The position numbers were made by a program. Shown here piece by piece: positions 25,001 through 31,000 of a DNA stretch of 64,000 bases. Numbering within the stretch: position 1 is the first letter of the stretch; the number at the start of each line of letters is the position of its first letter. The stretch lies in NCBI RefSeq assembly GCF_054482525.1, contig NZ_CM137006.1. One strand, written 5' to 3'.

Positions 25001-28000
25001 GTCAATAATTAATTCCACGCCAGTGCGTGTTATTGCCATTGTAGGATGTGATGGTTCAGGTAAATCGACCCTCACGGCAAGCCTGGTAAATGAACTGGCA
25101 GCAAGAATGCCAACAGGGTAATGACTCCAACTTATTGATAGTGTTTTATGTTCAGATAATGCCCGATGACTTTGTCATGCAGCTCCACCGATTTTGAGAA
25201 CGACAGCGACTTCCGTCCCAGCCGTGCCAGGTGCTGCCTCAGATTCAGGTTATGCCGCTCAATTCGCTGCGTATATCGCTTGCTGATTACGTGCAGCTTT
25301 CCCTTCAGGCGGGATTCATACAGCGGCCAGCCATCCGTCATCCATATCACCACGTCAAAGGGTGACAGCAGGCTCATAAGACGCCCCAGCGTCGCCATAG
25401 TGCGTTCACCGAATACGTGCGCAACAACCGTCTTCCGGAGACTGTCATACGCGTAAAACAGCCAGCGCTGGCGCGATTTAGCCCCGACATAGCCCCACTG
25501 TTCGTCCATTTCCGCGCAGACGATGACGTCACTGCCCGGCTGTATGCGCGAGGTTACCGACTGCGGCCTGAGTTTTTTAAGTGACGTAAAATCGTGTTGA
25601 GGCCAACGCCCATAATGCGGGCTGTTGCCCGGCATCCAACGCCATTCATGGCCATATCAATGATTTTCTGGTGCGTACCGGGTTGAGAAGCGGTGTAAGT
25701 GAACTGCAGTTGCCATGTTTTACGGCAGTGAGAGCAGAGATAGCGCTGATGTCCGGCGGTGCTTTTGCCGTTACGCACCACCCCGTCAGTAGCTGAACAG
25801 GAGGGACAGCTGATAGAAACAGAAGCCACTGGAGCACCTCAAAAACACCATCATACACTAAATCAGTAAGTTGGCAGCATCACCCAATACAGGTGCCAAA
25901 CGGTGTTAACCCGTTGTCACTAAATTGCAGTCGCTCGCCAGCAAGGCGCGCATATTTATCGTATAGCCCCATTATTTATTCTCCAGCCATGGAAGTAGAG
26001 TTTCCATTAATTGCGCAGGGGTTTTGACATCCAGCAGAATATTAATAGGAATGGAAATATCGAATCTGTCTTCCAGCATCATTAAGAGATCCATCACTTT
26101 GATCGACTCCAGGCCAAGATCGTTGACGAGATCGCTGTCGGGCTTAATTTCCACACCGTTTTCGACCAAATCCTGTAAACAGGAAAGGATGTAATCCATT
26201 ACTATTTCACGATTTACCATAGAAACGTTAACACACCTTTAAACAAGACAATCAAAATAGCCCGTTGCGTAATGCGTGTTCCAGGCTAATCCCGGGAAAC
26301 CAATTAATATCTTCAGAAATACGGTTATTACTTGCCGACCAGTCGGCGTGGGTTAATTCACGAATTTTCGAGCGGGTCAGCATAGGTTCTTTACCTGCCA
26401 GGCGACTCAACGCGGTACTGATATCCGCAAGGCCGGTGAGTACCGGCAGAGGAATGCCAACCATTCGCACGGAACCGCAACGGGCGTCGGCGGCAAGTTG
26501 CTGTACGCGTTGCCAGTCATAGCCGCCGACGACGCCATCGCATAATTCATAGGTTTGCGTCTGTATAGTTTCGGCGCTTAACCACTGACCCACTGCTTGC
26601 GCGAAATCGGTGACGTGCAGAAAAGAGAGCTGTGTATCTGGCGCACCAAGTCGTGGCAGCAGGCCGCGCAGCATCCAGTCAAACAGCGGTTTTAACTCTT
26701 TATCGCCGGGACCATACACGGCTGTCGGGCGAAAAACGCCCAGCGTAATTTCGTCCGCCATTGCTGCCAGTCGTTGCTCGGCGACGTATTTGGATTTTGC
26801 ATACCAGGAGAGCTCGGGATGGCGCGCCGCCAGCGAAGAGATAAACAGAAAACGTTGGCAAAAGCCGCTCTCTTTTGCTGCTTGCATCAGGCGCAGGCTG
26901 CCGTCAACGTTACAGCGGGTGAAAATCTCTTCTTTGTGCCCGCGCACTTGCCCGGCGCAATGGACCACTACGCTGGCTCCGGCAACCAGCTCGCTAAGTG
27001 AATGAGTATCTTCCAGCGAACCGCGCACCCAGGTGAGATTATCATTGACGTGAGCGCGGGCAGTACGCGTCAATGCGCGAACGTGAAAGCCGCGGGCGAG
27101 CAGGTTATCGATAATATATTTACCGATAAACCCGGTAGCGCCCGTCACCGCGACAGTTTGATTCATGCCAGGGATTCCTGCACATTAAGACTGGCAGCAT
27201 AAGCCTTCTGATAACGTTTTTTCGCTTCCGCACGGGCAGGCTTGCCGGAGGACGTTCGGGGAATACTGTGGGGCGGCAACAGATCGATAGCCGCGGTCAC
27301 GCCAAATTCGCTTTGGATCCGTGCCGCCAGCGCGTGGATAAGCTGCCCGCGACGTTCTTCGTCGCTGATCCGACACTGGATCTGCAAAATGATTTTTTCC
27401 TGGGCGGTAACAAAAGCAATCGCATCGCCAGAATGAATTTCCGGTTCCTGTTCCGCTATATATTCAATATCCTGCGGCCAGATATTACGGCCACGAATAA
27501 TAATCAGATCTTTAATGCGTCCGGTGACATACAGATAACCGTCCAGCAGATAACCGAGGTCGCCGGTGTCTAACCAGCCCGTCGCGGCAATCTCGTCTTG
27601 CGAAACCTGGTCGCCAAAGTAACCGCTCATCAGACTGGGACCGGAGATGCAAATATGGCCTACCACACGTTCCGCGACCGGCATACCTGCTTCATTGCGG
27701 ATTTCAATACCATGTTCCGGCAACGCTTTGCCGCAGTTGACGAAAGTCGATACGGCGCGTGTCTCTGCACCCGGCGCGACGGCTTTACCCTGATATTCGA
27801 GGATGTCGCGATCCACTTCGTTAACCACAACCCCGGAGGCTTCATCAGAGAAGCTGACAGCCAGCGCATTTTCTGCCAGTCCGTAGCACGGCATGAAAGT
27901 TTTATCGTCAAAGTTGACCTGACGGAAACATTCAGCGAATTGATGGAGTTGTTCTGCGGAGATGGGTTCTGCACCAATACCAGCGACGCGCCAGCAGGAA

Positions 28001-31000
28001 AGATCCAGTTCAGCGAGATCTTTTTCATTCACGCGGCGCTGGCACAATTCATAGCCAAACGGCGGCGCAACGGAAACGGTGCCGCGATTTTTACTGATCA
28101 ATTTAAGCCATTGCAGAGGACGCATGGCAAAATCCTGAGTGCGCAAATAATCTACTGAGAGTTGCGTGGCGACGGGGGTCAGGAGAAAGCCGACCAGTCC
28201 CATATCATGGTAGAAAGGCAGCCAGGAGACGCAGCGGTCGCCAGGGCGTAATTTTATGCCATCGTGGCTTATAGCACGTAGATTAGCCATCACTTCGCGA
28301 TGGGTGATAATGACGCCACGGGGAAAACGGGTGCTGCCGGAGGTGTACTGGAGGTAGGCGATATCGTTCGGAACTGGACGCTGGAGCGCAACATCGGCTT
28401 CCGGTAATGCCTTAAACCAGGCGTGGCTTAAAACATGTAATTCGGGGTTGTTGTTATGCGTCGCGGCATTGACCAGTGGCAACCACTCATCACCAGTGAT
28501 AATGGCTGCGGGCTGGCAACTTGCCAGTAAACCCTGCAGCTTGGCGCTCCAGGAATCCCGCTGACCGACGCCCATGGGAATCGCCAACGGGACGGCGACT
28601 AAGCCGGCATACTGGCAGGCAAAAAAAGCCTCTACGAACCCGCTACTGGTTTCGGCAATCAGTGCCACGCGATCGCCTTTTTTCAGGTTTAGCGATAACA
28701 ACCGCTTCGCACCAGCTTCGGCACGCGCTTTTAACGTCTGATATTCCAGTTGATCTTCAAGTTGGCAACGTCTGTCATAAAAATTCATTCCAGCGCTACT
28801 CAGAGCGGCATAGTCCAAAGCATCAACCAGCGTTGGAAAATCGGCATAGCGCATAGGTAGGGAATGCGTAAAGATTTTATTAGACATATACACCACGAAA
28901 AAATTGGATATCAAAAATAAAATGACAATAATGCGGTGGATTATATAGGCATAAAAGATAAATGAGATAGTATTTTCATCAGTGTGAAAATGAACATTGA
29001 TTTAAATAATGAATTTGAGTTTTTTGTTTTTATTGTGAATGATATTTAATTTATGAATATATTAAGAAGGAGCCTTGTCCGGTCGCCTTAAATCGACAAA
29101 AGGCATTGTGGCGCTTCTGTGTAGTCTCTGACCTTATCGTAATCATTAATAAATACTATTTATTCGTCGTTTGTATTCATTGGGTTGATTATTAAGGTGC
29201 CGTTCGTTGCTGTTGCAACCTGTTTGTCACCGTTAATTATTTGTTACCCACAGAACTATGGAATGCGATCTGCTGATGATTAAAATTGAAAAAGTAATTA
29301 ATAAAAATGACCTTAAGGCATTTATCGCTTTTCCGTCATCACTTTATCCCGACGATCCAAACTGGATACCCCCTTTATTCATTGAACGCAACGAGCATTT
29401 GTCTGCGAAAAATCCGGGGACGGACCATATCATCTGGCAGGCGTGGGTGGCAAAAAAAGCGGGGCAGATAGTTGGGCGTATTACCGCGCAAATAGATACC
29501 TTGCACCGCGAGCGTTACGGCAAAGATACCGGTCATTTCGGCATGATTGACGCCATTGATGATCCGCAGGTTTTTGCCGCGTTGTTTGGCGCAGCGGAAG
29601 CGTGGTTGAAGTCACAAGGTGCAAGTAAGATCAGCGGGCCTTTCAGCCTGAATATCAATCAGGAAAGCGGATTACTGATTGAAGGTTTTGACACTCCGCC
29701 CTGTGCGATGATGCCACACGGCAAACCGTGGTATGCCGCGCATATTGAACAACTGGGTTATCACAAAGGCATTGATTTACTGGCGTGGTGGATGCAGCGA
29801 ACCGATCTCACTTTCTCTCCGGCGCTAAAAAAACTGATGGATCAGGTGCGCAAAAAGGTGACCATTCGCTGCATCAATCGTCAGCGGTTTGCCGAAGAGA
29901 TGCAGATCCTGCGTGAGATTTTCAACTCTGGCTGGCAGCACAACTGGGGATTTGTGCCGTTTACCGAACATGAATTCGCGACCATGGGCGATCAACTTAA
30001 ATATCTGGTGCCGGACGATATGATCTATATCGCTGAGATTGATTCTGCACCCTGCGCGTTTATTGTCGGCTTGCCGAACATCAACGAGGCGATTGCCGAT
30101 CTGAACGGATCGCTCTTTCCCTTCGGCTGGGCAAAATTGCTGTGGCGTTTGAAAGTCAGCGGTGTGCGAACTGCGCGAGTACCGCTGATGGGCGTGCGCG
30201 ACGAGTATCAGTTCAGCCGCATCGGCCCGGTGATTGCGCTGTTATTGATTGAAGCCTTACGCGATCCGTTTGCCCGCCGGAAGATCGATGCGCTGGAGAT
30301 GTCATGGATCCTCGAAACCAATACAGGCATGAATAACATGCTGGAACGCATTGGGGCGGAGCCGTACAAGCGTTACCGATTGTATGAAAAGCAAATTTAA
30401 TACCAGCTAACTCAGGTTCATCTCCAGCGGCACCGCCGAGCGAATCAAATGGTGGCCTTCCAGCTCGATATCGTGGAGATTCTTTTTCACGGTCCGCACA
30501 TGATCGCGTGCTGCGCGCTGGGCGACGTGCGGCAGCCGCTGCAACACCGCGTTGTAGATCCGCGCATGCTGGCGATCGATCTGCTTTTTTTGCTGTGGTC
30601 GATGGTAGAGATTATTTACGCTGGCAAACACTGAATTAAACATCAGATCGGTCAATGATTGCAGCGTAAACACCAGCACCTGATTGTGAGAAGCCTGACA
30701 AATGGCGAGATGGAAAGCGTGATCCAACTGCGCATGTTCGATCAGCGAAATCTCTTTGTTATTCTCACTGGCGGCGAGCATTTTTTCATAACAGCGAGTT
30801 ATCACAACAAAATCAGCCTGCGTTCCCAGCGTTGCCGCCAGCCTTGCCGATTCGCCCTCCAGTAATGCGCGAACGTCGAGCAGATCGTACAGCGTTCGCG
30901 GCTGCGTGCTGAACAGATGAATTAGCGGGCTGGTGTCCTGCACCCGATTAAGCCGTGCGACACGAGAATCGCGACCCTGCGCCGTTTCAATAATCCCGCG

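What the first reader, a model, noticed from the sequence alone, without database searches (positions are those of the whole stretch)
25972..30400. Stand-alone fatty acyl-AMP ligase, SDR reductase and ACP operon divergent from an intact yghO: a split carboxylic-acid-reductase-like module
Three tightly coupled genes on the minus strand encode an AMP-binding ligase (YTSGSTRFPRGV), an extended-SDR protein (GATGFIGKYI, YAKSK) and an ACP (DLGLES). The ligase stop overlaps the SDR start (ATGA) and the ACP stop overlaps the start of a fourth gene (TAATG), now cut by IS1. Adenylation + carrier + NAD(P)H reductase is the domain logic of carboxylic acid reductases and NRPS reductive release, here on separate polypeptides. 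The divergent full-length yghO (a remnant in K-12) would fit N-acylation or tailoring of the product. Together this looks like an uncharacterised small lipid or fatty aldehyde/alcohol pathway.
Basis: partly seen in the sequence, partly recalled or inferred. Interest (0 to 1): 0.72.

Follow-up and report, generated by a model that had tools for sequence, protein, structure and literature searches.

The report
IS1-truncated E. coli sphingolipid gene cluster
These genes are the already described Escherichia coli ceramide (sphingolipid) synthesis cluster, here made non-functional because an IS1 element has deleted its key enzyme, serine palmitoyltransferase, and seven neighbouring genes.

Summary
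A fatty acyl-AMP ligase, an extended-SDR protein and an ACP are translationally coupled on the minus strand. A fourth gene is cut by IS1, and an intact yghO lies divergent.

The proposed mechanism, a split carboxylic-acid-reductase making fatty aldehydes or alcohols, is not supported. In intact E. coli loci the cut gene is spt, serine palmitoyltransferase. The five genes are the published E. coli BL21(DE3) set ECD_02850-02854: yghO/aca (bCerS), aasR, epi (CerR), acpR and spt (Padilla-Gómez 2022, PMC9386255).

Compared with BL21, the window's ACP and YghO are identical, the SDR matches at 303/304 residues and the ligase at 555/562. The ligase is the crystallised EcFAAL (PDB 3PBK).

So the ligase loads a dedicated ACP, and Spt condenses acyl-ACP with serine. 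YghO, predicted here as a tandem GNAT, N-acylates the product, and the SDR reduces the 3-keto group.

In this window IS1 (25117-25884) replaces 7,458 bp, from yghS codon 45 to spt codon 30, with no target duplication. The pathway is therefore dead. This exact allele is in 5 of 5,426 complete E. coli genomes, and about 75% keep the intact locus.

Verdict: already known, low interest.

The parts
29258..30400 (+). yghO: orthologue of the bacterial ceramide synthase / acyl-CoA N-acyltransferase (aca, bCerS; BL21 ECD_02850). Intact here.
   Evidence: The 380-aa ORF is identical to the YghO of the intact-locus strain L001, which carries the same accession WP_001300526.1 as BL21. The literature reports 44% identity and E 1e-107 to Caulobacter CC_1154. 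There is no Pfam, NCBIfam or PDB sequence hit. The AF2 model has pLDDT 93.5 and matches tandem-GNAT structures.
28888..29257 (.). Divergent intergenic region between yghO and the aasR operon, presumed to hold the promoters. AT-rich, 38% GC.
   Evidence: Composition dip. The consensus promoter scan was not above shuffled expectation, so no promoter is assigned.
27163..28887 (-). aasR / EcFAAL: fatty acyl-AMP ligase that acylates the dedicated ACP (BL21 ECD_02851). Intact.
   Evidence: NF006624 at 874 bits, above the cutoff of 600. PDB 3PBK at 1296 bits, near-identical. 555/562 residues identical to BL21. Shown to load the cognate ACP and reject CoA (PMC8460268; PMC9386255).
26252..27166 (-). 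Extended-SDR reductase: orthologue of CerR/epi, a 3-keto reductase of the sphingoid backbone (BL21 ECD_02852). Intact. Its start overlaps the ligase stop (ATGA).
   Evidence: Pfam Epimerase 1.5e-22. 303/304 residues identical to BL21. 34% identity and E 7e-38 to Caulobacter CC_1164. Found next to FAAL, ACP and Spt in 38 of 40 FAAL-containing loci from other species.
25972..26220 (-). acpR: dedicated acyl carrier protein (BL21 ECD_02853). Intact. The serine lies in the motif DLGLES.
   Evidence: 82/82 residues identical to BL21. ACP models match below their cutoffs. The 4'-phosphopantetheine group and acylation by AasR_Ec have been shown (PMC9386255; PMC8460268).
25885..25972 (-). Stub of spt (serine palmitoyltransferase): the first 29 codons plus 1 nt, cut by IS1. 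The start overlaps the acpR stop (TAATG).
   Evidence: Sequence. The stub MGLYDKYARLAGERLQFSDNGLTPFGTCI equals the N-terminus of the 390-aa Spt of L001. The full protein scores 599 bits against NF047599 (cutoff 500) and E 4e-111 against the S. paucimobilis SPT structure.
25117..25884 (-). IS1 (IS1A-like, 768 bp, insA/insB). It replaces 7,458 bp of the ancestral locus, with no target-site duplication.
   Evidence: NF033558 matches both ORFs. The ends were read. Alignment to the intact locus L001 shows L001 1543-9000 missing, and the flanking 9-mers differ (TGCCAACAG versus CAATACAGG).
24984..25116 (+). Stub of yghS, 44 codons, cut by the other end of IS1.
   Evidence: The translation equals the first 44 residues of L001 YghS. 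RefSeq marks it as a partial pseudogene in the identical allele of strain AH50.
24118..24810 (-). yghT: a P-loop (dTMP-kinase-like) protein at the edge of the conserved cluster. Intact. Its function in the pathway is unknown.
   Evidence: Identical to BL21 YghT. Weak dTMP-kinase match. Travels with the cluster in Serratia, Erwinia, Rosenbergiella and Mangrovibacter.

Best explanation
This is the yghO-proximal half of the E. coli sphingolipid (dihydroceramide) biosynthesis locus, inactivated by an IS1-associated deletion.

In the intact locus the pathway runs as follows. AasR (EcFAAL) adenylates a free fatty acid; C12-C14 adenylates were seen in the crystal. It transfers the acyl group to the phosphopantetheine arm of the dedicated carrier AcpR and not to CoA. 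Spt, a PLP-dependent alpha-oxoamine synthase, then condenses acyl-AcpR with L-serine to give 3-oxo-sphinganine. These steps have been shown for the E. coli proteins.

YghO, a tandem-GNAT N-acyltransferase, adds the second acyl chain, and the SDR protein reduces the 3-keto group. These two steps are inferred from orthology to Caulobacter bCerS and CerR, and their order is disputed in the literature. The convergent genes yghS, yghR, yghQ, hyp274, ytfJ-like, lptF2 and lptG2 presumably decorate the lipid, flip it and export it to the outer membrane (inferred).

In this window IS1 has removed spt from codon 30 together with those seven genes. No long-chain base can be made, so the four surviving genes are a recent, still intact but functionally orphaned remnant.
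For: (1) In intact E. coli loci the gene after the ACP is annotated spt, and the locus order is yghT | yghS yghR yghQ hyp ytfJ-like lptF lptG | spt acp SDR FAAL | yghO | glcC.

(2) The window proteins equal the BL21(DE3) proteins: ACP 82/82, YghO identical, SDR 303/304, FAAL 555/562. BL21 ECD_02850-02854 are named aca(yghO)/aasR/epi/acpR/spt. AcpR_Ec carries 4'-PPant, AasR_Ec acylates AcpR_Ec, and SPT_Ec makes 3-oxo-sphinganine and prefers acyl-AcpR (PMC9386255).

(3) The ligase is PDB 3PBK. EcFAAL loads EcACP and rejects CoA (PMC8460268).

(4) Spt of the intact allele passes the NCBIfam equivalog cutoff (599 versus 500) and matches solved bacterial SPTs at E 4e-111.

(5) Published orthology: YghO versus CC_1154 at 1e-107 and 44% identity; SDR versus CC_1164 at 7e-38 and 34% identity.

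(6) The YghO model has pLDDT 93.5 and a tandem-GNAT fold, with Foldseek E down to 3e-15.

(7) Co-occurrence across species: of 52 YghO-homologue loci with full 10-kb flanks, 27 hold FAAL+SDR+ACP+Spt and 49 hold these and/or LptF2/G2-like genes. Serratia has the same cluster in a different neighbourhood.

(8) Deletion: L001 1543-9000 is replaced by IS1 without a target duplication.

(9) The LptF2/G2 paralogues are required for sphingolipid transport in Caulobacter, and the E. coli UTI89 locus is drawn as a sphingolipid operon (bioRxiv 10.64898/2026.04.12.717747).
Against: No paper found here reports a sphingolipid made natively by wild-type E. coli. In PMC9386255 the products appeared only on over-expression.

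The roles of the E. coli SDR and YghO are called 'might encode' in that paper and rest on orthology. The order of the N-acylation and reduction steps is disputed (PMC11087976 versus PMC9386255).

I could not fetch a Caulobacter locus myself: the genome scan returned only the 80 best loci, down to about 43% identity. The Caulobacter comparison therefore rests on the published table.

The roles of YghQ/R/S/T, hyp274 and the YtfJ-like protein are untested.
Confidence: 0.9

Rival explanations
1. FAAL, ACP and SDR act as a split carboxylic-acid-reductase or NRPS-R-domain-like module. The acyl-ACP thioester is reductively released by the SDR protein as a fatty aldehyde or alcohol, which YghO may then tailor.
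For: The domain logic (adenylation + carrier + NAD(P)H Rossmann protein) is present and translationally coupled. There are weak matches to thioester-reductase and 'male sterility' profiles.
Against: TIGR01746 matches only the Rossmann glycine motif (residues 4-36, 44 bits versus cutoff 213). PF07993 gives three short fragments, the best at E 2e-4, whereas Epimerase scores 1.5e-22. The operon's conserved fourth member is Spt, which was shown to use acyl-AcpR. The SDR is orthologous to a reductase whose deletion in Caulobacter accumulates oxidised ceramide.
Confidence: 0.03
2. The surviving four genes keep an Spt-independent function in this strain. For example, YghO could use acyl-AcpR or acyl-CoA to N-acylate another amine, giving an N-acyl amine or amino-acid lipid.
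For: All four ORFs are intact and nearly identical to functional alleles. GNAT N-acyltransferases are often promiscuous; one structural neighbour is a histidine N-acyltransferase solved with N-myristoyl histidine (9EMP). A few loci from other species hold a YghO homologue without the core genes nearby.
Against: The intactness is explained by the deletion being recent: the allele is in 5 of 5,426 genomes and 100% identical in three of them. Across species YghO homologues sit with Spt or LptF2/G2 genes in 49 of 52 full loci. Nothing in the data points to another substrate.
Confidence: 0.05
3. The SDR protein is a sugar-nucleotide epimerase/dehydratase, and the locus (with yghQ 'LPS biosynthesis protein' and lptF/lptG) is a polysaccharide or LPS-modification cluster.
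For: RefSeq names it 'NAD-dependent epimerase/dehydratase family protein'. The best Pfam family is Epimerase, and the best NCBIfam family is 'hopanoid-associated sugar epimerase'. The neighbours are annotated as LPS genes.
Against: No sugar-nucleotide equivalog comes near its cutoff: GalE 28 versus 262, RmlD 22 versus 224, HpnA 95 versus 368. There are no glycosyltransferase or sugar-nucleotide synthesis genes in the locus. The gene is fixed between a FAAL and an ACP-Spt pair in 38 loci.
Confidence: 0.02

Closest known systems
E. coli BL21(DE3) sphingolipid genes ECD_02850-ECD_02854 (aca/yghO, aasR, epi, acpR, spt; Padilla-Gómez et al. 2022, PMC9386255)
   Same: Same chromosomal locus between glcC and pitB, with the same gene order and orientation. 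Proteins are identical or over 98% identical.
   Different: The window lacks spt beyond codon 29, and also lptG2, lptF2, ytfJ-like, hyp274, yghQ, yghR and most of yghS. These are replaced by IS1.
Caulobacter crescentus ceramide synthesis genes: spt CC_1162, acpR CC_1163, cerR/epi CC_1164, aasR CC_1165, bcerS/aca CC_1154, with lptF2/G2/C2 in the locus
   Same: The same five enzyme families and the same LptF/LptG paralogues in the locus. AasR loads AcpR, which feeds Spt.
   Different: Identity is only 34-44%. Caulobacter head-group genes (cpgABC, with an LCB5-type ceramide kinase) are not in the E. coli locus, which instead has three P-loop dTMP-kinase-like genes, yghR/S/T. No LptC2 was annotated in the E. 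coli locus.
EcFAAL, PDB 3PBK (fatty acyl-AMP ligase of E. coli)
   Same: The same protein: 1296 bits with a handful of substitutions. It carries the FAAL-specific insertion, was co-crystallised with lauroyl/myristoyl-AMP, and loads EcACP but not CoA.
   Different: The FAAL papers read here do not connect it to sphingolipid synthesis: the word 'sphingolipid' occurs zero times in PMC8460268 and PMC11837247.
Carboxylic acid reductases / NRPS terminal thioester-reductase (R) domains
   Same: Adenylation, phosphopantetheinyl carrier and a Rossmann-fold NAD(P)H protein are encoded together.
   Different: The SDR protein fails the thioester-reductase profile. The acyl-carrier thioester is consumed by a PLP-dependent Claisen condensation (Spt), not by reduction.
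K-12 MG1655 yghO-IS5-yghQ remnant
   Same: The same locus degraded by an insertion sequence.
   Different: In K-12, IS5 removed the biosynthetic operon and kept yghQ(partial)/R/S/T. Here IS1 kept the biosynthetic operon minus spt and removed yghS-lptG2. These are independent, complementary deletions.

Membership tests
Proteobacterial ('Rhodobacteria'-type) sphingolipid/ceramide synthesis cluster | Serine palmitoyltransferase (PLP-dependent alpha-oxoamine synthase) encoded in the cluster | tested here: not met
   Only 29 codons remain in the window. In intact alleles of the same locus the 390-aa protein passes NF047599 (599 bits, cutoff 500) and matches SPT structures at E 4e-111. The locus is therefore a member by descent, but this copy lacks the committed enzyme.
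Proteobacterial ('Rhodobacteria'-type) sphingolipid/ceramide synthesis cluster | Dedicated ACP (AcpR) immediately upstream of spt, with a phosphopantetheinylated serine | tested here: met
   The ACP stop overlaps the spt start. The serine lies in DLGLES. The sequence is 82/82 identical to AcpR_Ec, which was shown to carry 4'-PPant.
Proteobacterial ('Rhodobacteria'-type) sphingolipid/ceramide synthesis cluster | Specialised acyl-ACP synthetase (AasR) of the FAAL type | tested here: met
   NF006624 at 874 bits, above 600. Equals PDB 3PBK. 555/562 identical to ECD_02851.
Proteobacterial ('Rhodobacteria'-type) sphingolipid/ceramide synthesis cluster | CerR/epi-type extended-SDR reductase | tested here: met
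   303/304 identical to ECD_02852, which is 34% identical (E 7e-38) to CC_1164 (published table). Syntenic with FAAL/ACP/Spt in 38 loci. Enzyme activity of the E. coli protein has not been tested by anyone, as far as the papers read here show.
Proteobacterial ('Rhodobacteria'-type) sphingolipid/ceramide synthesis cluster | bCerS/aca-type N-acyltransferase | tested here: met
   YghO is identical to ECD_02850, which is 44% identical (E 1e-107) to CC_1154. Tandem-GNAT fold predicted. Co-localised with Spt or LptF2/G2 genes in 49 of 52 loci.
Proteobacterial ('Rhodobacteria'-type) sphingolipid/ceramide synthesis cluster | Production of a long-chain base or ceramide | not testable with these tools
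   Needs lipidomics. Published only for over-expressed E. coli genes.
Fatty acyl-AMP ligase (FAAL) as opposed to acyl-CoA synthetase | FAAL-specific insertion and pocket; transfers to holo-ACP and rejects CoA | tested here: met
   Near-identity to EcFAAL 3PBK, the reference protein in which these features were defined and assayed. The FadD-type CoA-ligase models fall far below their cutoffs.
Carboxylic acid reductase / thioester-reductase (R-domain) systems | Reductase belongs to the thioester-reductase family (TIGR01746 / Pfam NAD_binding_4) | tested here: not met
   TIGR01746 scores 44 bits against a cutoff of 213 and covers only residues 4-36. PF07993 gives fragments at E 2e-4 or worse, while Epimerase scores 1.5e-22.
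Carboxylic acid reductase / thioester-reductase (R-domain) systems | Acyl-carrier thioester is the reductase's substrate (no other consumer of the thioester) | tested here: not met
   A conserved Spt follows the ACP in 39 of 40 FAAL-containing loci and was shown to use acyl-AcpR.
Sugar-nucleotide epimerase/dehydratase | Reaches an equivalog cutoff and sits in a sugar-biosynthesis context | tested here: not met
   GalE 28 versus 262, dTDP-glucose dehydratase 23 versus 365, RmlD 22 versus 224. No sugar-nucleotide or glycosyltransferase genes are in the intact locus.
IS1 insertion sequence | 768 bp, insA/insB with frameshift, terminal inverted repeats, 9-bp target duplication on simple insertion | tested here: met
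   Length, ends and both ORFs are confirmed. The target duplication is absent, as expected for an IS1-associated adjacent deletion or recombination rather than a simple insertion.

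The most novel reading that the evidence does not exclude
The orphaned quartet (AasR, AcpR, SDR, YghO) may still do something without Spt in this lineage. For example, YghO could N-acylate another amine with a C12-C14 acyl chain delivered through the FAAL/ACP pair, making an N-acyl amine or amino-acid lipid. 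The wider question lies outside this window and is still open: what lipid do wild E. coli with the intact 12-gene locus, including the three P-loop proteins YghR/S/T, actually make and export through LptF2/G2?
Probability: 0.05. Interest if true: 0.45.

Novelty: already known. Interest (0 to 1): 0.15.

Why it matters
For this window it matters little. It is a decayed copy of a gene cluster that has been described, partly assayed and partly crystallised.

It has some annotation value. yghO is still labelled 'putative DNA-binding transcriptional regulator' in K-12 and 'protein YghO' in RefSeq. The SDR is labelled as an 'epimerase/dehydratase family protein', and lptF2/lptG2 carry the names of the essential LPS permeases. 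All of these are better read as parts of a sphingolipid pathway.

The locus is present in about three quarters of complete E. coli genomes, and different insertion sequences have degraded it independently. No native product is reported in the papers read here. That remains a real but already recognised open question.

Tried and rejected
- Sequence-profile searches of YghO (NCBIfam, Pfam, PDB sequences) returned nothing. Its fold had to be obtained by structure prediction and Foldseek.
- The genome-contig scan with a YghO alignment kept only the 80 best loci, down to about 43% identity, and did not include Caulobacter. The Caulobacter orthology is therefore cited from the published table, not recomputed.
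- The consensus promoter/terminator scan of 25850-30500 was at the shuffled expectation: 6 promoter-like sites against 5.8, and 4 terminator-like sites against 5.5. It says nothing about regulation.
- Full-text searches for yghO and yghQ/R/S/T found no functional study of these genes in sphingolipid decoration.
- I asked whether YghR/S/T might be the ceramide kinase. The Caulobacter kinase CpgB is an LCB5/DAG-kinase-type protein, not a P-loop kinase, so no homology-based assignment is possible.
- The carboxylic-acid-reductase reading and the sugar-epimerase reading were both considered and rejected on profile scores and conserved context.

Full report
**Where the window comes from.** The window is Escherichia coli chromosome, in the order gss-pitB-yghT ... 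yghO-glcC-glcDEFGB (annotated equivalents). It is the reverse complement of the K-12 orientation.

**Observation.**
- Fatty acyl-AMP ligase at 27163-28914(-) as the longest ORF. RefSeq uses 27163-28887 in the identical allele of strain AH50.
- An extended-SDR protein at 26252-27166(-).
- An 82-residue ACP at 25972-26220(-).
- An intact 380-residue yghO at 29258-30400(+).

The ligase stop and SDR start overlap as ATGA. The ACP stop and the start of a fourth gene overlap as TAATG. That fourth gene runs for only 29 codons before a complete 768-bp IS1 at 25117-25884.

The profile assignments are strong:
- The ligase scores 874 bits on NCBIfam NF006624 'fatty acyl-AMP ligase' (cutoff 600). The ordinary FadD-type CoA-ligase models are far below their cutoffs.
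- The SDR matches Pfam Epimerase at 1.5e-22.
- The ACP matches a series of ACP models, all below their cutoffs, and has the serine in DLGLES.

**What the fourth gene is.** A megablast of 25885-29257 against 5,426 complete E. coli genomes finds the segment in 4,189 of them, with at least 80% covered in 4,101. In almost all listed records the gene after the ACP is annotated 'spt: serine palmitoyltransferase'.

The intact locus, in ECCHD184 (L001) and BL21(DE3) (L005), reads:
yghT(-) | yghS, yghR, yghQ, a 274-aa hypothetical, a YtfJ-family protein, lptF-like, lptG-like (+) | spt, ACP, SDR, FAAL (-) | yghO (+) | glcC.

The 390-aa Spt passes the NCBIfam equivalog NF047599 (599 bits, cutoff 500). 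It matches the solved Sphingomonas serine palmitoyltransferases at E 4e-111.

**What the literature already says.** Padilla-Gómez et al. 2022 (PMC9386255) name exactly these BL21(DE3) genes:
- aca = yghO = ECD_02850
- aasR = ECD_02851
- epi = ECD_02852
- acpR = ECD_02853
- spt = ECD_02854

They show that AcpR_Ec carries 4'-phosphopantetheine and that AasR_Ec acylates AcpR_Ec. They also show that SPT_Ec forms 3-oxo-sphinganine and prefers acyl-AcpR over acyl-CoA. Their Table S2 gives CC_1154 versus ECD_02850 at E 1e-107 and 44% identity, and CC_1164 versus ECD_02852 at E 7e-38 and 34% identity.

I fetched the BL21(DE3) locus and compared it with the window. The ACP matches at 82/82 residues. 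YghO is identical (same RefSeq accession, WP_001300526.1) and YghT is identical. The SDR matches at 303/304 and the ligase at 555/562.

The ligase is also the crystallised EcFAAL, PDB 3PBK (1296 bits). This is the reference protein for the FAAL-specific insertion. It was co-crystallised with lauroyl- and myristoyl-AMP. It was shown to load its cognate EcACP while rejecting CoA (PMC8460268).

A 2026 preprint shows that the LptF/LptG/LptC paralogues of the Caulobacter sphingolipid locus are needed for sphingolipid transport. It draws the E. coli UTI89 locus as a sphingolipid operon.

**Independent checks made here.** YghO has no Pfam, NCBIfam or PDB sequence match. An AlphaFold2 model built on a 35-sequence alignment is confident, with mean pLDDT 93.5 and pTM 0.91. 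Its best structural neighbours are tandem-GNAT N-acyltransferases: 2WPW, 5KF1 and 7Q3A, with Foldseek E from 3e-15 to 6e-14 and query-normalised TM-scores (TMq) of 0.53-0.62. This fits an N-acyltransferase and not the 'DNA-binding regulator' label it carries in K-12.

I then scanned one genome per species with the YghO alignment and ran tblastn with the E. coli proteins. Of 52 loci with both 10-kb flanks:
- 27 hold FAAL, SDR, ACP and Spt together.
- 37 hold LptF2/G2-like genes.
- 49 hold one set or the other.

The SDR accompanies FAAL-ACP-Spt in 38 of the 40 loci that have the FAAL. In Serratia liquefaciens the same cluster lies in an unrelated neighbourhood. The genes therefore travel as a module.

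**Why the carboxylic-acid-reductase reading fails.** The SDR protein matches the thioester-reductase profile TIGR01746 only over residues 4-36, the Rossmann glycine motif. It scores 44 bits against a cutoff of 213, and Pfam NAD_binding_4 gives only short fragments. The acyl-ACP thioester has a demonstrated consumer, Spt. The SDR's characterised orthologue is a reductase of the sphingoid 3-keto group, and its deletion in Caulobacter accumulates oxidised ceramide.

The sugar-epimerase reading fails as well. No sugar-nucleotide equivalog comes near its cutoff, and the locus contains no sugar-nucleotide or glycosyltransferase genes.

**Mechanism.**
- Shown for the E. coli proteins: fatty acid + ATP gives acyl-AMP (AasR/EcFAAL), then acyl-AcpR. 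Acyl-AcpR + L-serine gives 3-oxo-sphinganine + CO2 (Spt).
- Inferred by orthology: N-acylation by YghO and 3-keto reduction by the SDR give dihydroceramide. The order of these two steps is disputed. Acylation first, with a periplasmic reductase, is proposed in PMC11087976. Reduction first is proposed in PMC9386255.
- Inferred from context only: head-group modification, flipping and export by YghR/S/T, YghQ, hyp274, the YtfJ-like protein and LptF2/G2.

**State of this copy.** Alignment to the intact locus shows that IS1 replaces 7,458 bp (L001 1543-9000). The lost DNA runs from yghS codon 45 through yghR, yghQ, hyp274, ytfJ-like, lptF2 and lptG2 to spt codon 30. The 9-mers flanking IS1 differ (TGCCAACAG versus CAATACAGG). 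This is an IS1-associated deletion or recombination, not a simple insertion. Without Spt no long-chain base can be made, so the four intact genes are an orphaned remnant.

The exact junction pair occurs in 5 of 5,426 complete genomes: strains 2452, AH50, 20A24, GN03139 and GN03551. By contrast, 4,088 genomes keep at least 80% of the yghS-spt segment in one piece. K-12 carries a different, complementary deletion. There IS5 removed the first 13 codons of yghO and everything up to the middle of yghQ.

**Verdict.** It is wrong on the core mechanism and on the pathway being uncharacterised. The feature is already known, and this copy is defective. What remains open lies outside this window: the native lipid of E. 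coli strains with the intact locus, and the roles of YghQ/R/S/T.

Noticed in passing
window 29258-30400; L086 (K-12 MG1655) 2044-3216: yghO is annotated in K-12 as 'putative DNA-binding transcriptional regulator', and some Serratia homologues as 'DNA-binding protein'. A confident AF2 model shows a tandem-GNAT acyltransferase fold, and the literature treats it as the ceramide-synthase orthologue. The label looks like a misannotation.
   Followed up: yes
L086 (K-12) 3147-4341 versus window 29298: In K-12, IS5 deleted the complementary part of the locus: the first 13 codons of yghO, then aasR, SDR, acpR, spt, lptG2, lptF2, ytfJ-like, hyp274 and the end of yghQ. It kept yghQ'/R/S/T. This is an independent IS-mediated loss of the same pathway.
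   Followed up: yes
E. coli genome hits H43, H45-H47, H49-H55: Several other E. coli genomes have IS1 at or near this locus with different partners. Some share the yghS/IS1 left junction but have unrelated DNA on the other side, such as a tyrosine recombinase. Others have IS1 beside ACP/spt at other positions. The locus seems to be a recurrent site of IS1 rearrangement.
   Followed up: partly
L001 460-1228; window 24803-24811: The 'intact' reference strain ECCHD184 has its own IS1B between yghT and yghS. It is flanked by a 9-bp duplication of the sequence found once in the window, so it is a simple insertion, unlike the window's IS1.
   Followed up: yes
L027-L033, L037, L039-L042, L044, L048, L055, L074 (Nitrosomonas/Nitrosospira and relatives): In ammonia-oxidising Betaproteobacteria the YghO homologue sits directly upstream of LptF2/LptG2-like genes, with no FAAL, SDR, ACP or Spt within 10 kb. 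The published table places those genes elsewhere in N. eutropha. This links the N-acyltransferase to the transporter rather than to the Spt operon.
   Followed up: partly
L001 1410-2913 and window 24118-24810 (yghS, yghR, yghT): Three paralogous P-loop, dTMP-kinase-like proteins belong to the enterobacterial cluster. Outside the Enterobacterales they were found only in Pseudomonas marginalis (L018) and one betaproteobacterial MAG (L043). The Caulobacter ceramide kinase is of a different, LCB5/DAG-kinase type. The E. coli head-group chemistry may therefore differ and is unstudied.
   Followed up: partly
L016 (Shimwellia pseudoproteus), 10001-11137: Shimwellia carries a second YghO paralogue (74% identity) on another contig, with none of the cluster genes within 10 kb. 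Its first copy (L007) lies in a full cluster.
   Followed up: no
literature: PMC8460268, PMC11837247 versus PMC9386255: The FAAL structural and mechanistic papers on EcFAAL/EcACP never mention sphingolipids. In what I read of the sphingolipid paper on AasR_Ec/AcpR_Ec I did not see the structure 3PBK discussed. Two literatures on the same E. coli gene pair appear unconnected.
   Followed up: partly
window 27163-28914: The longest ligase ORF starts at a TTG (583 aa). RefSeq aa in AH50 and 562 aa in BL21 and ECCHD184, so the true start codon is not settled. The window allele also has a one-residue insertion (NNN where BL21 has DN) near residue 134 of the 562-aa form.
   Followed up: no
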